Assembly: GCF_044324875.1 (NCBI RefSeq)
Contig: NZ_CP172185.1
DNA length: 64,000 nt
Source of the DNA: Escherichia coli
GTDB taxonomy: Bacteria; Pseudomonadota; Gammaproteobacteria; Enterobacterales; Enterobacteriaceae
Direction: 5' to 3' (one strand)
This document shows, in pieces, positions 1,852 to 9,821 of the stretch. The position numbers and the translations under genes were made by a program. Every line of letters starts with the position of its first letter. Within the stretch, counting starts at the first letter, position 1. The notes under the pieces are model-generated. The model was not told the DNA's origin. It searched no databases and saw nothing but the letters and a program-made list of their open reading frames with translations.

Positions 1852-3282
1852 TCAGGCCAGCGTCCACAGTGAGCCGTCCGTCAGCACAGCCTCGCCGTGA
1901 GCTGCATATAGCGACAACCGGCGGGTTCCGGGCTGCGGGTAAATACGGCTGGACAGGGTGGCATCGCCATCGTTAACGAACACTTCCACCGATGAACGGT
2001 CCAGGAAAACCCGTAGCGTCAGATATTCTGCGCCAGGCAGCGCGATACTGCGGTAACCGTCCAGCCCCTCATCCGGGTAGTGACGCCAAAGCACCAGCCG
2101 TCCTGCCTGGTTATCCACATACAGCCGGAGCCCGTCTCCCAGGTGGATGCCGTAATGCTCTGCCTGACTGTCGAGGGTATGCCACGTCAGCACCAGTTCC
2201 ACGGCCTGTGCGTCCTCAGCCAGCAACTGCGTGCCACTGAGCCTTACAGGGTGTAACGGCTGGCACGTCCCGCGAAGGGATTCGGCTTCGCGAACCGGAC
2301 GCTGACACAGACGACCATGGCGTTCAAAAAGTTCCCTCGGCAGGGTCAGACATCCGGCCCAGGCCTCACGCTTTGTAGGCATCGGGGAGTCCCACATATT
2401 CATCCAGGCCATGATGATGCGCCGTCCGTCCTCCGCGACCAGGGACTGCGGGGCATAAAAATCATGACCGTGATCCAGTTCTTCAAATGCCCCGCTCAGG
2501 GCAAAAGCGGCCCCCGGCTGCCAGTGACCCGGTAAAACTCCGCTCTGAAAGCGGTTGCGGAACCGGTATCCGCCGGGCGTCATCCCCTGCGGGGAGAACA
2601 TCAGCCAGTGATGGTCGCCACAGCGGAAAAAGTCCGGACATTCCCACATATAGCTTTCTCCGGCTGCCGACTGCGCCAGAACCCGTTCCTGGCGCCAGTC
2701 CCGCAGGGATGTGCCGCGATACAGCAGCACCTGACCGGTGTCAGAGGTATCCCGCGCGCCGATAACCATCCACCAGTATCCCCCTTCCCGCCAGACCTTC
2801 GGGTCACGGAAATGCATGATGCCTTCCGGTGGCGTCAGCACGCAGCCCTGTTTCTCAAAGTGAATGCCGTCACGGCTGGTTGCCAGACACTGGACTTCGC
2901 GGATGATGCTGTCATCCCCCCGATCCTCCAGACAGAGATGACCGGTGTAGATAAGCGACAGCACGCCGTTGTCGTCCACTGCGCTGCCGGAAAAACAGCC
3001 ATCCCGGTCATATTCATCACCGGGTGCCAGCGCAACCGGCTCATGCTGCCAGTGCAGCATGTCCGGACTGGTGGCATGTCCCCAGTGCATCGGCCCCTGA
3101 TGTTCACTTGCCGGATGGTGCTGAAAGAATGCGTGATAGCGACCGCTGAAATAAATAAGCCCGTTCGGATCATTCATCCATCCGGCAGGTGGAGCCAGAT
3201 GAAAAACCGGGTACCAGGTATCACCACGACGGGCGCGGAGTGTATCAAGTGCAACCTGTGCAGAGGCAAGACGCTGTTTCAT
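1852..3282 (-). CDS. rafD: Raffinose invertase / sucrose hydrolase, glycoside hydrolase family 32
   Basis: 476-aa ORF with GH32 N-terminal block WMNDPNGL and FSGSAVDD; last gene of a rafR-rafA-rafB cluster. Confidence 0.9.
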   Translation of the reverse strand: MKQRLASAQVALDTLRARRGDTWYPVFHLAPPAGWMNDPNGLIYFSGRYHAFFQHHPASEHQGPMHWGHATSPDMLHWQHEPVALAPGDEYDRDGCFSGSAVDDNGVLSLIYTGHLCLEDRGDDSIIREVQCLATSRDGIHFEKQGCVLTPPEGIMHFRDPKVWREGGYWWMVIGARDTSDTGQVLLYRGTSLRDWRQERVLAQSAAGESYMWECPDFFRCGDHHWLMFSPQGMTPGGYRFRNRFQSGVLPGHWQPGAAFALSGAFEELDHGHDFYAPQSLVAEDGRRIIMAWMNMWDSPMPTKREAWAGCLTLPRELFERHGRLCQRPVREAESLRGTCQPLHPVRLSGTQLLAEDAQAVELVLTWHTLDSQAEHYGIHLGDGLRLYVDNQAGRLVLWRHYPDEGLDGYRSIALPGAEYLTLRVFLDRSSVEVFVNDGDATLSSRIYPQPGTRRLSLYAAHGEAVLTDGSLWTLA

Positions 3283-4571
3283 AAGCGAACCTCCGTCTGT
3301 GCTGTAGCGGTTTCTGCTGACGGGGCAGCCGTTTTACGGGTACTGCTCAGGGTGAAAGCCGATAACACGGTGACCGCAAGGACAATACCGCCCAGAACCA
3401 GATAGGTGTTCTGGAACCCCATGCGGTCATACAGGTGACCTGCAAAGGTTGAGAGGAATATCGCCGCCAGTTGTTTGGAGAACTGAAAGCCAATCAGATA
3501 AATGGTGGCCGACAGCCGGGTATCAAACACGCCGGTGATATACTTGAACGCACCAACCAGCAGGAATGGGACTTCAAGGGCATGCAGCATTTTCAGGATC
3601 ACCACTTCAGTAGCCGTGGTGGCAAAGGCCGACCCTGTGATGCGGATGGTCATAATCAGACCCGCGACAAGCAGTGTGTTTTTGGCACCAATGCGGTTGA
3701 TTATCCAGGGGGAGCAGAACATGATGATGGCATTGCAAATCTCGCCAGCCGTGGTGGCAAAACCAAATGCCCGGATCCCCGCCTGCGGCGTGTCAAAAAA
3801 TGCACGGAAGAACGTGGCAAACTGCTGGTCAAACACGTCATAGACGCAGGCCACCCCAATCATGTAAAGCACGAACATCCACATCTGACGCATACGAAAC
3901 AGACTGAACACCATTCCGGCGGAAATCACGGGCGAGTTGGCACCCAGCGCATTCATGACCATCGCTGTCTGACTGGTTCCGGGACGCGCCAGCGCCACCA
4001 GAAGGACCAGCAGCAATGCGCAGCCGGACCCCATCCAGAATACCAGGGACGGATCCACGTTGAAAAGCAGCCCTGCCGTGGTGGCACACAGCGCCCAGCC
4101 CAGACAGCCGAACATCCGGGCCTTACCGTATTCAAATCCGCTGCTGCGGCTGACACGTTCAATATAGGCTTCGATGGCACCGGCTCCCGCAGAAAAAACG
4201 AAGCCGATAAAAATCCCGCCGCTCAGTGCTCCGGCCCAGATGTTGAACCGCAGCAGCGGCGCAAAAACGTACAGAAAGAACGGTGCAAACAGGACCAGCA
4301 GCAGGCTGATGATCCACATCAGGTGTTTTTTCAGGCCAAGACGGTCTGAGATGACCCCCAGCAGCGGCTGGAAGCTGATGGCAAACAGGGAGAGGCATGA
4401 AAAAACAATCCCGGTATCCGTTTTACTCAGCCCCACAATGTCTGACAGCCAGACGGGCAGAAACGGGAAACAGGTTGCCATGATGAAAAAGTAGAGAAAA
4501 AAGAACAGACCAAATATCCAGAAATCGGGGTTTTTATGAGTACTGACAGTATTCATTATTGTTATCCTCAC
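3279..4571 (-). CDS. rafB: Raffinose permease, LacY-type oligosaccharide:H+ symporter (MFS)
   Basis: 430-aa ORF; N-terminal NPDFWIFGLFFFLYFFIMATCFPFLPVWL and the rest are collinear with LacY; stop overlaps rafD start. Confidence 0.9.
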   Translation of the reverse strand: MRITIMNTVSTHKNPDFWIFGLFFFLYFFIMATCFPFLPVWLSDIVGLSKTDTGIVFSCLSLFAISFQPLLGVISDRLGLKKHLMWIISLLLVLFAPFFLYVFAPLLRFNIWAGALSGGIFIGFVFSAGAGAIEAYIERVSRSSGFEYGKARMFGCLGWALCATTAGLLFNVDPSLVFWMGSGCALLLVLLVALARPGTSQTAMVMNALGANSPVISAGMVFSLFRMRQMWMFVLYMIGVACVYDVFDQQFATFFRAFFDTPQAGIRAFGFATTAGEICNAIIMFCSPWIINRIGAKNTLLVAGLIMTIRITGSAFATTATEVVILKMLHALEVPFLLVGAFKYITGVFDTRLSATIYLIGFQFSKQLAAIFLSTFAGHLYDRMGFQNTYLVLGGIVLAVTVLSAFTLSSTRKTAAPSAETATAQTEVRL

Positions 4572-4610
4572 GGGACTGAGTGCAGGGAGCCGTGACCGGC
4601 TCCGGTCCTT

Positions 4611-6737
4611 TTATGCCAAACGTTCAAGGGCAATCAGCATGGCGCTTTCCGGATCCAGTACGGGAAGCTGAATACCGGCCTGCGCCAGCCATTCCCCACT
4701 GATGTCGGAGGTCTGGTTCATCCAGCCGGGCAGCCTGCGCATGGTATGCCCGCCTTCACCGACCAGCTGAATATCCGGATGGTCAACAACACGAAGCCGG
4801 TAACGGGCCTGTGGTGCCAGCCCCGGAAAACGTAGAGCACCCGGCAGGGTGTGATCCGGCATGGCAAGCTGGCTCACCAGGAAGAGCGCCTGCGACTGAT
4901 CCGGGCTGACCACCCCCTGCACCTGTGTCGCCGCATCCGGCATATCCACCCGCCATAGGGTGCCCGTGTGGATAAGCTGCCGCCATTCTTTGTAGAGCGA
5001 GGCATAGCGGCGGTAACCGGCGGATTCCTCTTCTCCGGCCGTTACCGGATCCAGCTCCAGTCCCATATGACCGAACAGGGCCGTCAGACCGCGAAAGGCA
5101 ATGCTGTGCTGCCGGAAGGTGGCATGGCAGCGATGATGACCGATGTGTGCCCCCATAACCTCCGGCGGGAAAAAGTAACTCATGCCACGCTGTATGGTGC
5201 AGCGCTCCAGGGCGTCATTGTTGTCAGAAGCCCAGAAGCGGTGCGTGCGGGTCAGAACCTCAAAGTCGATACGTCCACCGCCGGAAGCGCAGGACTCAAA
5301 CTCAACACGGGGAAAACGTTCGCGCAGGAGATCCAGCAGCCGGTAAAACTGACGGGTCTGCGCGTCCGCCGCCGCCCGACCTTCATGCCCGGCCTGGACC
5401 AGCTCGCGGTTCATGTCCCATTTCACATAGTCAACTGGGTGTTCGCCCAGCAGCCATAAACAGCGTTCATAAATGTAAGCAAAGGCCTCAGGAATGTTCA
5501 GGTTGAGAACATACTGATGTCTCCCGGTTGGTTGTGTGTACCCCGGCATTGACAGTACCCAGTCAGGATGGCGGCGAAAGAGGTCAGAGTCCGGGTTAAT
5601 CATTTCCGGTTCCACCCAGATACCGAACTCCATGCCGAGTGATTTCACATGGTTAATCACCGGCATCAGTCCGTCCGGATACTTCTGTTCATCCAGATAC
5701 CAGTCGCCCAGAGCCGCATGGTCATCATTGCGCCCCTTAAACCAGCCGTCGTCGATAATGAAACGTTCAACGCCAAGCGCTGCCGCACGTCCGGCCATCT
5801 GCATGATGTAGTTCGGGTCGTGGTCAAAATAAATACCTTCCCAGGTATTGAGGTGCACCGGACGGGGTTTCTGCTCAGGAAAACGGATGATTTCATCGCG
5901 CAGAAAACGGTGGTACTGCTGACTCATACCATTGAGCCCCTCCGGGGAATAGCTGGCGTACAGCCACGGCGTGTACACGGTCTCATCCTTCTTCAGGGCT
6001 TTTTCTCCGGGCATCCACAGTGCTTCCGCCTGGAGGTAACGCCGTCCGTCAGTTTTGACCTCACATTTCATGCGATGGTTGCCACTCCAGCCCAGATGTA
6101 CGGCCCACACCTCGCCCTGCTGTTCTGAGAAACCGGGGGCACCGGCAATCAGTGCCGGAAAATGCTCATGGGACGTGCGGCCCCGGCGGTTCTCCAGCAC
6201 AAAACCGTCATGTGTGAGACGGACCCTGTGCGGCTGAAACTCACGAGTCCAGCGTCCGTGGAAGGCCATGACTTCCTCTGCCCTTTCAGCCACAGGGAGC
6301 GTGATGGCGAAGCGGTTCACCTGCCAGTCCCCTTCACGGAGGTTCGTCAGGGCATGACGCATCTTCAGCACACCGGACGATGTCAGCACCAGTTCACTGA
6401 CCATGCGCAGACCCGCCACTGCATCCTCACTGGTCAGGGTGAGTGATTCTCCGGCCTGTACCACGCTGATGGTACGGAACACAGGGGACGCATCCAGCCC
6501 GTTGCGGTGTCCCTCCAGCCCCGGCGAGCCAAAAAGTCCCGCGCCGTTTTCGGCCATCAGCGTCAGTGGGGTGTCGGTATCCAGACGACCATTCGCAACC
6601 GGCCTTTCCAGGCTGATACAGTCATCCGGTGAAAAGTGTTTCAGGGTGGATCCCCACCAGACAATCTCTGCATACGGGTGGGTTTTAATAATCAGGTCTG
6701 AGTGGGGACTGGTCAGCCTGCGGTACATCGGTTCCAT
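4611..6737 (-). CDS. rafA: Alpha-galactosidase, glycoside hydrolase family 36
   Basis: 708-aa ORF directly downstream of the LacI-type regulator and operators; length and position match RafA. Confidence 0.9.
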   Translation of the reverse strand: MEPMYRRLTSPHSDLIIKTHPYAEIVWWGSTLKHFSPDDCISLERPVANGRLDTDTPLTLMAENGAGLFGSPGLEGHRNGLDASPVFRTISVVQAGESLTLTSEDAVAGLRMVSELVLTSSGVLKMRHALTNLREGDWQVNRFAITLPVAERAEEVMAFHGRWTREFQPHRVRLTHDGFVLENRRGRTSHEHFPALIAGAPGFSEQQGEVWAVHLGWSGNHRMKCEVKTDGRRYLQAEALWMPGEKALKKDETVYTPWLYASYSPEGLNGMSQQYHRFLRDEIIRFPEQKPRPVHLNTWEGIYFDHDPNYIMQMAGRAAALGVERFIIDDGWFKGRNDDHAALGDWYLDEQKYPDGLMPVINHVKSLGMEFGIWVEPEMINPDSDLFRRHPDWVLSMPGYTQPTGRHQYVLNLNIPEAFAYIYERCLWLLGEHPVDYVKWDMNRELVQAGHEGRAAADAQTRQFYRLLDLLRERFPRVEFESCASGGGRIDFEVLTRTHRFWASDNNDALERCTIQRGMSYFFPPEVMGAHIGHHRCHATFRQHSIAFRGLTALFGHMGLELDPVTAGEEESAGYRRYASLYKEWRQLIHTGTLWRVDMPDAATQVQGVVSPDQSQALFLVSQLAMPDHTLPGALRFPGLAPQARYRLRVVDHPDIQLVGEGGHTMRRLPGWMNQTSDISGEWLAQAGIQLPVLDPESAMLIALERLA

Positions 6738-6772
6738 AAGACATCTCCGTTTTCGGGTATGCCTTACTGTTG

Positions 6773-6811
6773 ATCCGAATCGTTTCGGATAGCAACCGAA
6801 ACGATTCGGAT
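6773..6811 (-). promoter_or_regulatory. raf operator pair (two adjacent ~18-bp palindromes) in rafA promoter region
   Basis: atccgaatcgtttcggat (6773-6790) and aaccgaaacgattcggat (6794-6811) lie between rafR stop and rafA start. Confidence 0.7.
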
Positions 6812-6830
6812 TTGTGAGCGGGATTAAAAA

Positions 6831-7841
6831 TCAGGCGGAGGGAGCAAGCGTTGTCTTGCCAGGATGAAATTCCGGCTGCCAGAGTACTTGTAGCATTTCA
6901 GGTGAAACATTCGTGACCAGCTGGCGTATCATGTCGGCAATCTGACGACCGACGCGATGTCGTGTTGACTGAAGAACTGCAGCCACATCCTGTTCAATAA
7001 TACTGTCCTGCGGCAGACCATCATAAACCACAAGAGAGACGGCATCCTCTCCGGACAGATGACCGGATAACTGCAGCGACATGGCCGCGCCATCACCGAT
7101 CAGGTCACTGTCGGTAATAATGGCCGTCGGGGGAAGCGGAAGTGACATTAACTCAGTCACTGCCTGGAAACCTGAGCGTCGGGTGGGAGAGACCCGGCGT
7201 AGCCAGGTCTCAGGCAGACCATGTTCACTCAGGGCATCGCGCCATCCCTGACGTCGTGCAGTGACATAGGCACGGGAGTTGTCCTCACTCAGCAGGGCAA
7301 TTCGCTGATGGCCCAGGGCAATCAGGTGCTGTGTGGCCTGCCAGGTTCCTGCATGGTTATCAAAGTCAAACCAGGCACAGGGAAGACCGGACGGCACCTG
7401 ACCGAGTGCCAGAAACGGAATACCGGCCTCCTGCAGGTGTGTAAGACGCGGGTCATTATCCATCGTGTGCGCCACGATAAGGGCATCAACCCGGCGGCTT
7501 TCGACCAGACGCATATAGCTGTGGCTGTCAGCCCGTTCATCATCGGCTATCAGCAGTAAGTCAATATCATGGCGGGCCAGTTCCCGGCTGATACAACTGA
7601 CCATATCCACAAACACACTACTGCTGAACAGTACAGCATGTTCAGGGAAGACCAGGCCGACCGCATCGGTTTTACCGGTTTTGAGACGTCTTGCCAGGGT
7701 ATTCGGGCGATAACCACGACGCCGAGCTTCCGCTTCTACACGTGCACGGGTCGAAGCGGAAACGTCCGAAAATCCGCCAAGCGCCCGGCTGACTGTGGTG
7801 ACAGAGATCCCGAGTTCGGCGGCGATAGCCTTGAGTGACAT
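6831..7841 (-). CDS. rafR: LacI-family repressor of the raf operon
   Basis: 336-aa ORF; N-terminal HTH MSLKAIAAELGISVTTVSRALGG typical of LacI/GalR family. Confidence 0.9.
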   Translation of the reverse strand: MSLKAIAAELGISVTTVSRALGGFSDVSASTRARVEAEARRRGYRPNTLARRLKTGKTDAVGLVFPEHAVLFSSSVFVDMVSCISRELARHDIDLLLIADDERADSHSYMRLVESRRVDALIVAHTMDNDPRLTHLQEAGIPFLALGQVPSGLPCAWFDFDNHAGTWQATQHLIALGHQRIALLSEDNSRAYVTARRQGWRDALSEHGLPETWLRRVSPTRRSGFQAVTELMSLPLPPTAIITDSDLIGDGAAMSLQLSGHLSGEDAVSLVVYDGLPQDSIIEQDVAAVLQSTRHRVGRQIADMIRQLVTNVSPEMLQVLWQPEFHPGKTTLAPSA

Positions 7842-8266
7842 ATTTTCTCCTGCGGATAACTGAACAGCCCTGTCCCTGATGCGGGTGATCCGGGCAACAA
7901 ACCTGACAGAGACGCCTGCATAAGTGGTCGCGCTGTACCAGTATGAGCCTCCATCATCCTGATTTGTGTATTAACTTTCAATACCGGAGGACGATTTGAT
8001 TACCGGTTGTTAGCAGGAGTGCGAATATTAGACCGACGGTGGAGATCTAAGACTCAGTGAGCATAGCGATACACTATATTACTGTAATTAAGCCAGTAAA
8101 CTTCCTGTTCACTGGCTTAAACGCTAATGATGTATGCAGTTGAACAAGCTTTTAAACTAATGATTAATTGATATATAGACTGGCCCCCTGAATCTCCAGA
8201 CAATCAATATCACTTAAATAAGTGATAGTCTTAATACTAGTTTTTAGACTAGTCATTGGAGAACAG

Positions 8267-8632
8267 ATGATTGATGTCTTAGGGCCGGAGAAACGCAGAC
8301 GGCGTACCACACAGGAAAAGATCGCAATTGTTCAGCAGAGCTTTGAACCGGGGATGACGGTCTCCCTCGTTGCCCGGCAACATGGTGTAGCAGCCAGCCA
8401 GTTATTTCTCTGGCGTAAGCAATACCAGGAAGGAAGTCTTACTGCTGTCGCCGCCGGAGAACAGGTTGTTCCTGCCTCTGAACTTGCTGCCGCCATGAAG
8501 CAGATTAAAGAACTCCAGCGCCTGCTCGGCAAGAAAACGATGGAAAATGAACTCCTCAAAGAAGCCGTTGAATATGGACGGGCAAAAAAGTGGATAGCGC
8601 ACGCGCCCTTATTGCCCGGGGATGGGGAGTAA
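8267..8632 (+). CDS. insC: IS2 transposase OrfA
   Basis: [56 protein letters not shown]..., 121 aa. Confidence 0.9.
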
Positions 8633-9495
8633 GCTTAGTCAGCCGTTGTCTCCGGGTGTCGCGTGCGCAGTTGCACGTCATTCTCAGACGAACCGATGAC
8701 TGGATGGATGGCCGCCGCAGTCGTCACACTGATGATACGGATGTGCTTCTCCGTATACACCATGTTATCGGAGAGCTGCCAACGTATGGTTATCGTCGGG
8801 TATGGGCGCTGCTTCGCAGACAGGCAGAACTTGATGGTATGCCTGCGATCAATGCCAAACGTGTTTACCGGATCATGCGCCAGAATGCGCTGTTGCTTGA
8901 GCGAAAACCCGCTGTACCGCCATCGAAACGGGCACATACCGGCAGAGTGGCTGTGAAAGAAAGTAATCAGCGATAGTGCTCTGACGGGTTTGAGTTCCGC
9001 TGTGATAACGGAGAAAAACTGCGGGTCACGTTCGCGCTGGACTGCTGTGACCGTGAGGCACTGCACTGGGCGGTCACAACGGGTGGCTTCGACAGTGAAA
9101 CAGTACAGGACGTCATGCTGGGAGCAGTGGAACGCCGCTTTGGCAGCGAGCTTCCGGCGTCTCCAGTGGAGTGGCTGACGGATAATGGTTCATGCTACCG
9201 GGCGAATGAAACACGTCAGTTCGCCAGGATGTTGGGACTTGAACCGAAGAACACGGCAGTGCGGAGTCCGGAGAGTAACGGAATAGCAGAGAGCTTCGTG
9301 AAAACGATAAAGCGTGACTACATAAGTATCATGCCCAAACCAGACGGGTTAACGGCAGCAAAGAACCTTGCAGAGGCGTTCGAGCATTATAACGAATGGC
9401 ATCCGCATAGTGCACTGGGTTATCGCTCGCCACGGGAATATCTACGGCAGCGGGCCAGTAATGGGTTAAGTGATAACAGGTGTCTGGAAATATAG
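8590..9495 (+). pseudogene. insD: IS2 transposase OrfB interrupted by in-frame amber codon (TAG at 8974-8976)
   Basis: Frame reads ...KESNQR-TAG-CSDGFEF...; ORFs 8590-8976 and 9115-9495 are in the same frame; intact IS2 has W (TGG) here as I recall it. Confidence 0.8.
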
Positions 9496-9506
9496 GGGCA
9501 AATCCA

Positions 9507-9794
9507 ATCGTTAGCCATGGCCTCCCTACTCCAGAGATAATATAAAGGGGCGGGCTCAACAGATTTATCTTTACGTCGCTTGCACTGCAAATATTCAGAA
9601 ATTAGTCTATGCAGTTCACCAGTAAAATCAGCCATCAGAGAGGGAATTGCCTTATTCATACCTGGGCAAGGTATTAATTTAAATTGTAATAATTTAATTT
9701 TAGGATGTGTAGCTGCAGCCCGATACAGAGTTGCAAGGACACACTTTTGCCAGAGGACGTTACAGGAAAGCTTAATGTTTGATTCTGTATACAT
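9507..9794 (-). pseudogene. 5' fragment (96 codons) of an unassigned gene truncated by IS2
   Basis: Minus-strand ORF starting at 9794 (MYTESNIKLSCNVLWQKCV...) runs straight into the IS2 right end at 9506. Confidence 0.35.
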
Positions 9795-9821
9795 AATAAA
9801 TCACCTTACAGTTACAATAGG

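What the first reader, a model, noticed from the sequence alone, without database searches (positions are those of the whole stretch)
9507..9794. Gene truncated by the IS2 right end
A minus-strand ORF starting at 9794 (MYTESNIKLS...) runs 96 codons and then hits the IS2 boundary. The sequence on the other side of IS2 (7842-8175) does not continue it. This supports an IS2-mediated rearrangement and marks where the raf segment was joined to the island cargo.
Basis: seen in the sequence. Interest (0 to 1): 0.35.

Follow-up and report, generated by a model that had tools for sequence, protein, structure and literature searches.

The report
Island gene cut short beside IS2
The open frame is the real first half of a small genomic-island gene of unknown function whose second half was lost in a deletion next to an IS2 insertion sequence, which is an ordinary kind of gene decay.

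Summary
The minus-strand frame 9794->9507 is codons 1-96 of a 188-aa YagK/YfjJ-domain ("inovirus Gp2-type") island gene. It is 95/96 identical to the intact gene in other E. coli. It abuts the right end (IRR) of a 1331-bp IS2 (8176-9506) that has no 5-bp target duplication.

Comparative loci give an ordered series:
- Empty site: MMC-J-0085.
- Simple IS2 insertion with a perfect TAAAG duplication, 855 bp from the gene's ATG: CV839-06.
- The same right junction, but with raf on IS2's left and the gene intact: WP7-S17-ESBL-01.
- Shorter remainders of 759, 288 (this window plus 9 genomes) and 273 bp, each starting exactly at the IRR.

So the gene was truncated by a 567-bp IS2-anchored adjacent deletion after IS2 and raf were already present. 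In WP7 raf was joined by recombination inside IS2, as its hybrid IS2 shows. The island backbone appears to join by a crossover further right, at about 9900-10200. Position 9506/9507 is therefore a secondary deletion endpoint and not the raf-island join.

This is ordinary IS-driven pseudogenisation of an uncharacterised accessory gene. Interest is low.

The parts
9507..9794 (-). 5' fragment (codons 1-96 of 188) of a YagK/YfjJ-domain / 'inovirus Gp2-type' island gene
   Evidence: 95/96 aa identical to the intact gene L002:5722-6288. The intact protein scores 41.1 bits on PF11726 against a cut-off of 25.8. The fragment alone scores 13.8 bits.
9420..9506 (-). Read-through tail inside IS2 (28 codons plus stop) that completes a 124-aa chimeric ORF
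   Evidence: The same chimeric protein is on record as cluster P0014 (124 aa, 36 member sequences).
8176..9506 (+). IS2 (IS3 family), full length but with a nonsense codon in orfB; mosaic sequence
   Evidence: 1331 bp, 97.7% identical to K-12 IS2A, IRL and IRR present. Its makeup is T8204 as in the raf-linked IS2 copies, a middle section 8910-9324 identical to the FDAARGOS_1303 IS2 variant (Nissle 1917's copy differs only in lacking the stop), and A9414/A9444 as in the island-resident copies.
8974..8976 (+). TGG->TAG nonsense codon in IS2 orfB (the transposase)
   Evidence: Strain 135's annotation of the same copy reads 'internal stop'.
9506..9507 (.). Deletion endpoint: the IS2 IRR joined to codon 96 of the gene; 567 bp are missing relative to the original insertion
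   Evidence: DNA retained between the IRR and the ATG is 855 bp (CV839-06, WP7), 759 bp (FORC 064, ETEC1717), 288 bp (window) and 273 bp (MS 119-7). The exact window junction occurs in 9 of 5426 complete E. coli genomes.
7842..8175 (.). rafR upstream region abutting the IS2 IRL; this left junction is fixed
   Evidence: The raf|IS2 junction is present in 216 genomes and on plasmids. The same raf flank without IS2 occurs on a Salmonella plasmid.
6831..7841 (-). rafR (LacI-type repressor), the last gene of the raf block before IS2
   Evidence: Annotated WP_000053329.1 in strain 135.
9822..10385 (-). Upstream paralogue: Gp2/YagK-YfjJ family pseudogene with an internal TAA at 10185-10187; probable site of the island-side crossover
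   Evidence: The C-terminal 91 aa match PF11726 positions 79-170 with E 7e-28. The internal stop is shown. Identity switches from L010-type to L009-type at about 9900-10200.
10914..11477 (-). Third, intact paralogue (187 aa) of the same family
   Evidence: WP_000282092.1, 'inovirus-type Gp2 protein'.

Best explanation
The ORF is the 5' 288 bp of a 188-aa YagK/YfjJ-domain gene. It is the last of three tandem Gp2-like paralogues in a CP4-57-like integrative island next to phoH.

The likely history has four steps:
1. In an ancestor, IS2 inserted 855 bp downstream of the gene's ATG, in an IS66 remnant, and made a TAAAG duplication.
2. The raf block became linked to this IS2 by homologous recombination within IS2.
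3. DNA next to the IS2 right end (IRR) was lost in IRR-anchored adjacent deletions of 96, 567 (this window) and 582 bp in different lineages. The 567-bp loss removed the IS66 remnant and codons 97-188.
4. The IS2-plus-fragment module was placed in the present island backbone by recombination within the neighbouring paralogue.

Shown directly: the identity of the gene, the empty and simple-insertion states, the nested endpoints, and the hybrid IS2 sequences.

Inferred: whether each deletion was a direct intramolecular IS2 event, or a nearby re-insertion of IS2 followed by IS2 x IS2 recombination. Both routes give the same product.

The fragment is a pseudogene. Its product lacks the part that aligns with the family's HYH motif and C-terminal domain.
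For: - Gene identity.
- IS2 limits and absence of a target duplication.
- Empty site (L009), and a simple IS2 insertion with a perfect 5-bp duplication (L010).
- raf plus IS2 next to the intact gene (L004).
- Nested remainders of 855, 759, 288 and 273 bp, all starting at the last base of the IRR.
- Junction counts among 5426 complete genomes: 21 original, at least 24 with the 96-bp deletion, 9 window-type, 1 MS 119-7-type.
- The window's IS2 right end carries the resident-type variants A9414 and A9444, as in CV839-06, WP7 and FORC 064. K-12 IS2A, Nissle 1917 and FDAARGOS_1303 have G at both sites.
- Window 9507-9806 is 299/300 identical to the lineage that carries the original insertion, against 284/300 for the empty-site lineage.
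- BEN5202, which has the window junction, has no match to the gene's 3' half in its chromosome record. Its best match to that query is only a 77-bp IS66 piece (H246).
Against: - The window's IS2 is a mosaic. Its middle section (8910-9324) comes from a different circulating IS2 variant. A second IS2 copy, or gene conversion, was therefore involved at some point, and the order of events is not fixed.
- MS 119-7's IS2 right half is K-12-type. That fits a fresh IS2 insertion followed by recombination, at least for that step.
- The resident-type assignment of the right end rests on only two SNPs, plus the absence of two Nissle/FDAARGOS_1303-type SNPs.
- No genome was found with the window's exact IS2 sequence next to an intact gene.
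- The IS2 here now has a dead transposase. The deletion must predate the nonsense mutation, have been made by transposase supplied in trans, or have been purely recombinational.
Confidence: 0.85

Rival explanations
1. An IS2 inserted de novo into codon 96/97 of the gene, independently of the older IS2 567 bp away. The raf segment was then joined exactly here, by recombination with a raf-linked IS2 or by a one-ended or cointegrate IS2 event. On this view 9506/9507 is the primary raf-island junction.
For: There is no target duplication. The raf|IRL junction is fixed while the IRR side has at least five different partners: PN43 plasmid, EM03-18-08, WP7, the window and MS 119-7. raf-IS2 has therefore been re-joined to new DNA repeatedly. 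The window's IS2 is a mosaic.
Against: The same locus, the same IS2 orientation and four endpoints anchored on the IRR fit a single origin better. The IS2 right end carries resident-type SNPs. The adjoining 300 bp belong to the allele lineage that carries the original insertion. raf-IS2 already sits beside the intact gene in WP7 and at the second locus of strain 135.
Confidence: 0.11
2. The deletion was not mediated by IS2. It arose by replication slippage or illegitimate recombination and happens to end at the IS2 terminus.
For: The IS2 copy now encodes a truncated transposase. Such a deletion does not require transposase.
Against: Three independent deletion endpoints (-96, -567, -582 bp) all begin at the last base of the IRR. 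There is no microhomology at the junctions. This is the expected signature of IS-end-anchored events.
Confidence: 0.03
3. The ORF is a spurious open frame with no homologues.
For: The fragment alone is below the Pfam threshold (13.8 against 25.8 bits), and NCBIfam gives no hit.
Against: It is 95/96 identical to the N-terminus of an intact, annotated 188-aa protein. A homologous 188-aa cluster has 3028 member sequences. The intact protein passes PF11726.
Confidence: 0.01

Closest known systems
YagK / YfjJ of E. coli K-12 cryptic prophages CP4-6 and CP4-57 (Pfam PF11726, named 'inovirus Gp2 family' by NCBI)
   Same: The genomic setting is the same: a tyrosine integrase, an AlpA-like HTH protein, a DUF3987/YfjI protein, then Gp2-like genes. 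The intact orthologue passes the PF11726 threshold.
   Different: It is only 21-24% identical to YfjJ and YagK. The intact orthologue has Y-L-M where the family has H-Y-H. Here only residues 1-96 remain. The family's function has not been tested in any paper found.
IS2 (IS3 family), e.g. IS2A of E. coli K-12
   Same: 1331 bp, 97.7% identical, the same terminal repeats and the same orfA/orfB layout.
   Different: orfB has a TAG nonsense codon. The sequence is a mosaic of at least three IS2 lineages. There is no 5-bp target duplication at this copy.
IS-adjacent deletions that extend stepwise, as described for IS150 (IS3 family) in the E. coli long-term evolution experiment (PMC11708052)
   Same: The IS stays in place. 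Flanking DNA is lost starting exactly at one IS end, the target duplication is lost, and the deletions form a series of increasing size.
   Different: Here the series is reconstructed from natural isolates of different lineages and not from a time series, so the order and mechanism are inferred. A route through local re-insertion plus IS2 x IS2 recombination cannot be excluded.

Membership tests
YagK/YfjJ domain family (PF11726) | Score at or above Pfam's gathering threshold (25.8 bits) | tested here: inconclusive
   The 96-aa fragment scores 13.8 bits (E 0.057), below the threshold. The intact orthologue scores 41.1 bits (E 2.3e-10), above it.
YagK/YfjJ domain family (PF11726) | Orthology of the fragment to a full-length member | tested here: met
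   95/96 identical over residues 1-96 of WP_000287890.1. The DNA is 98-100% identical and at a syntenic position.
YagK/YfjJ domain family (PF11726) | Conserved H-Y-H (HUH-like) motif seen in YagK, YfjJ and the two neighbouring paralogues | tested here: not met
   The intact orthologue has TPYLMVLLL at the aligned position. The window's fragment ends 3 residues before it.
IS2 (IS3 family) | About 1.33 kb element with IS2 terminal inverted repeats and high identity to reference IS2 | tested here: met
   1331 bp, 31 differences from K-12 IS2A, IRL and IRR present.
IS2 (IS3 family) | 5-bp target-site duplication flanking a simple insertion | tested here: not met
   The window flanks are ATATA and ATCGT. 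The duplication is present (TAAAG/TAAAG) at the ancestral insertion in CV839-06.
IS2 (IS3 family) | Intact orfA-orfB transposase | tested here: not met
   TGG->TAG at 8974-8976 interrupts orfB.
IS-anchored adjacent deletion | An ancestral simple insertion exists, and the derived form lacks DNA contiguous with one intact IS end | tested here: met
   Empty site in L009, simple insertion in L010, and derived forms retaining 759, 288 and 273 bp with the IRR intact to the last base.
IS-anchored adjacent deletion | The lost DNA is absent from the genome, not moved elsewhere | tested here: inconclusive
   It is absent from the window. In BEN5202, one of the nine window-type genomes, the chromosome record's best match to that query is only a 77-bp IS66 piece (H246). 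Strain 135 has a second, intact copy in another island. The other genomes were not checked.
IS-anchored adjacent deletion | The deletion is made by transposase action and not by host recombination between two IS copies | not testable with these tools
   Both routes give the same sequence. The mosaic IS2 shows that IS2 x IS2 exchange did occur at this copy.

The most novel reading that the evidence does not exclude
The repeated, IRR-anchored losses at this one locus (-96, -567, -582 bp, plus a left-side loss into rafR at strain 135's second locus) are not neutral decay. They would instead reflect selection, for example against the HUH-less Gp2-like paralogue or for altered expression next to raf. 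Alternatively, the 124-aa chimeric product (the N-terminal 96 aa plus an IS2-encoded tail, present in 36 database sequences) keeps a function such as interfering with the intact paralogues.
Probability: 0.04. Interest if true: 0.4.

Novelty: already known. Interest (0 to 1): 0.12.

Why it matters
It matters little beyond correct annotation. The locus should be called a truncated YagK/YfjJ-family pseudogene abutting IS2 and not a hypothetical protein. The raf-island junction should be placed inside IS2, and in the neighbouring paralogue, not at 9506/9507.

The comparative series (empty site, simple insertion with duplication, hybrid IS2, nested deletions) is a clear natural example of how one IS2 copy both recruits a sugar-utilisation block into an integrative island and then erodes the neighbouring genes. 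All of these processes are well known.

Tried and rejected
- Second IS2 copy or the missing 3' half within the window: none found.
- tRNA attachment site in the window: none. The island abuts phoH, judged from strain 135's annotation.
- NCBIfam models: no hit for the fragment, the intact protein or the paralogues.
- Promoter and terminator scan around the gene: no more sites than in shuffled sequence, so uninformative.
- Literature on YagK/YfjJ function: nothing functional found.
- Literature on chromosomal raf islands in E. coli: nothing directly relevant.
- raf block as an IS2-bounded composite transposon: rejected. IS2 matches strain 135's locus only once. The far side of the raf block is bordered by IS66, IS3-family and IS1414 fragments and lies outside the window.
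- IS2 SNPs to decide between direct adjacent deletion and local re-insertion plus recombination: the mosaic pattern does not discriminate.
- Structure prediction and fold search: not run, because sequence orthology already settles what the fragment is.

Full report
**What is in the sequence**

IS2 occupies window 8176-9506. It is 1331 bp, in + orientation, begins TAGACTGG and ends GGCAAATCCA, and differs at 31 positions (97.7% identity) from IS2A of E. coli K-12. On the minus strand an ATG at 9794 has an AAGGTG Shine-Dalgarno-like sequence 8 nt upstream, and the frame runs 96 codons to 9507. It then reads on 28 codons into IS2 and stops at 9420-9422, giving a 124-aa chimeric ORF. The five bases on each side of IS2 are ATATA and ATCGT, so there is no target duplication. 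The left flank, 7842-8175, is the region upstream of rafR (6831-7841) and is unrelated to the gene.

**What the gene is**

A megablast of 9507-10100 against 5426 complete E. coli genomes finds the region in 1379 of them. In FORC 064 the same ATG opens an intact 188-aa gene annotated "YagK/YfjJ domain-containing protein" (WP_000287890.1). The window's 96 residues are 95/96 identical to its N-terminus (E 6e-73).

- The intact protein passes Pfam PF11726 (YagK_YfjJ_C) at 41.1 bits against a cut-off of 25.8.
- The fragment alone does not pass (13.8 bits).
- A search of 5.8 billion proteins returns only close relatives. Nearly all named hits are from E. coli, with a few from Klebsiella and Salmonella. 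One 188-aa cluster has 3028 member sequences. A 124-aa cluster of 36 sequences (P0014) is the window's chimeric ORF.

The gene is the last of three tandem paralogues of this family:

| Coordinates | State |
|---|---|
| 10914-11477 | intact |
| 9822-10385 | pseudogene with an internal TAA at 10185-10187 |
| 9507-9794 | this fragment |

They lie in an island with a tyrosine integrase, a DUF3987/YfjI-like gene and an AlpA-like HTH gene, next to phoH. This layout resembles CP4-57 of K-12.

In an alignment with YagK, YfjJ and the paralogues, the intact 188-aa protein is only 18-24% identical. It has Y-L-M where the others have H-Y-H, so it is a divergent member and possibly non-catalytic. No paper found assigns a function to the family.

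**How it was truncated**

Related loci give an ordered series.

| Genome (locus) | State | DNA retained, IRR to ATG |
|---|---|---|
| MMC-J-0085 (L009) | Same island backbone as the window, no IS2; the gene is followed by an IS66-family remnant | empty site |
| CV839-06 (L010) | Simple IS2 insertion in that remnant, same orientation as the window, perfect TAAAG\|IS2\|TAAAG duplication, no raf | 855 bp |
| WP7-S17-ESBL-01 (L004) | Identical right junction (IRR\|TAAAGAATG...), gene intact, raf block on IS2's left with the window's ATATA\|IRL junction | 855 bp |
| FORC 064, ETEC1717 | 96 bp next to the IRR lost | 759 bp |
| This window | 567 bp next to the IRR lost | 288 bp |
| MS 119-7 | 582 bp lost; its chimeric ORF reads ...SRE\|WICPY | 273 bp |

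Every deletion starts at the last base of the IRR, and no microhomology is visible at the junctions.

Sixty-base junction probes count each type among the 5426 complete genomes:

| Junction type | Genomes |
|---|---|
| Original (855 bp) | 21 |
| -96 bp | at least 24 exact matches; most of the 202 full-coverage genomes found with a longer probe |
| Window type (-567 bp) | 9 |
| MS 119-7 type (-582 bp) | 1 |

In BEN5202, a window-type genome, the 3' half of the gene has no match in the chromosome record (H246). At least there, the DNA is deleted and not moved.

This pattern of a fixed IS end, a lost duplication and nested losses is the signature of IS-anchored adjacent deletion. [quoted passage not shown]

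**Where raf was joined**

The raf|IRL junction is present in 216 genomes and on plasmids. A Salmonella plasmid has the same raf flank without IS2. By contrast, the IRR side of raf-linked IS2 has at least five different partners:

- plasmid PN43;
- a phosphoethanolamine-transferase fragment in EM03-18-08;
- the WP7 junction;
- the window junction;
- the MS 119-7 junction.

A site-by-site comparison of ten IS2 copies shows that the WP7 copy is a hybrid. It shares eight variants and a 228-bp internal deletion with the PN43 raf-linked copy, up to at least position 8970. From 9146 at the latest it shares about ten variants and a 6-bp insertion with the CV839-06 resident copy. In WP7, raf was therefore attached by homologous recombination inside IS2.

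The window's IS2 is also a mosaic:

- T8204, as in all raf-linked copies;
- a middle section (8910-9324) identical to the FDAARGOS_1303 IS2 variant, including the TGG->TAG nonsense codon at 8974-8976; Nissle 1917's copy lacks the stop;
- A9414 and A9444 at the right end, as in CV839-06, WP7 and FORC 064, and unlike K-12, Nissle or FDAARGOS_1303.

On the island side, window 9507-9806 is 299/300 identical to the lineage that carries the original IS2 insertion, against 284/300 for the empty-site lineage. From about 10200 rightwards the relation reverses, and the insertion-bearing lineage soon loses homology. The IS2-plus-fragment module therefore seems to have entered the present backbone through a crossover inside the neighbouring Gp2-family pseudogene. 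Strain 135, whose phoH island is 99.8% identical to the window, also carries a second raf-IS2-intact-gene locus in the other island type. Both partners for such an exchange can thus coexist in one cell.

**Verdict on the interpretation**

An IS2-associated rearrangement is supported. The claim that the 9506/9507 boundary marks where raf was joined to the island cargo is not supported. That boundary is a secondary deletion endpoint. In WP7 the raf join lies within IS2, and the window's mosaic IS2 fits the same route. The backbone join probably lies at about 9900-10200.

**Open points**

I cannot tell whether the 567-bp loss was a direct intramolecular IS2 event or a nearby re-insertion followed by IS2 x IS2 recombination, because the products are identical. 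The mosaic IS2 proves that inter-copy exchange happened at this locus. MS 119-7's K-12-type right half fits the second route, at least for that step. The resident-type call for the window's right end rests on few sites. The IS2 copy is now transposase-dead.

**Significance**

This is routine pseudogenisation of an uncharacterised accessory gene by a well-known insertion sequence, and the chimeric ORF is already present in public databases. It is a tidy natural example of an IS both recruiting cargo and eroding its neighbours, but nothing here is surprising. Interest is low and the novelty rating is "already known".

Noticed in passing
window 8974-8976 (and IS2 8176-9506 as a whole): IS2 orfB carries a TGG->TAG nonsense codon, so this copy cannot make its own transposase. 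The element is a three-part mosaic. The left end is the raf-linked type. The middle (8910-9324) is identical to the IS2 variant in FDAARGOS_1303; Nissle 1917's copy differs only in lacking the stop. The right end is the island-resident type.
   Followed up: yes
window ~16630-19268: An IS21-family element: istA-like ORF at 16750-18396 with rve and Mu-transposase C-terminal domains, istB-like ORF at 18170-19168, and multiple terminal repeats. It lies between the DUF3987 gene and the integrase, and is absent from the otherwise 99.8%-identical strain 135.
   Followed up: partly
window 9822-10385: The middle Gp2/YagK-YfjJ paralogue is a pseudogene with an internal TAA at 10185-10187 (Q->stop relative to FORC 064). 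Two of the three tandem paralogues are therefore dead in this island.
   Followed up: yes
window ~10450-10775: By position in strain 135's annotation, this stretch is a degraded fragment of a 'TOTE conflict system archaeo-eukaryotic primase domain' gene (frameshifted, internal stop). It lies between the Gp2-like paralogues.
   Followed up: no
window 9507-10400 compared with L009, L010, L002, L004: The island is a recombinant. The first ~400 bp right of IS2 are 99-100% identical to the island type that carries the original IS2 insertion. From about 10200 the sequence matches a different backbone (MMC-J-0085 type).
   Followed up: partly
L017 (strain 135, 4.85 Mb) 2993-5885: The same genome that has the window-type locus also has a second raf-IS2 locus with the intact 188-aa gene. 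There, IS2's left side cuts into rafR (N-terminus missing), which indicates deletion on the IRL side as well.
   Followed up: partly
L004 6301-7394 and L007 7377-8465: The raf-linked IS2 in WP7-S17-ESBL-01 (chromosome) and PN43 (a 354-kb record labelled plasmid) share the same ~228-bp internal deletion (window 8378-8605 equivalent). This links the chromosomal and plasmid-borne raf blocks.
   Followed up: partly
L016 (EM03-18-08) 5392-7116: raf|IS2 is joined on its right to a truncated phosphoethanolamine-transferase gene next to a dpt (DNA phosphorothioation restriction) cluster. This is another IRR-side partner for the same raf-IS2 module.
   Followed up: no
L002:5722-6288 (intact orthologue), alignment A1: The intact 188-aa protein lacks the H-Y-H motif conserved in YagK, YfjJ and the neighbouring paralogues (it has Y-L-M instead). 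It may be a non-catalytic member of a presumed HUH-type family.
   Followed up: partly
window 3279-4571: The rafB-like MFS transporter ORF is open in the window (430 aa), whereas the near-identical strain 135 copy is annotated as frameshifted.
   Followed up: no
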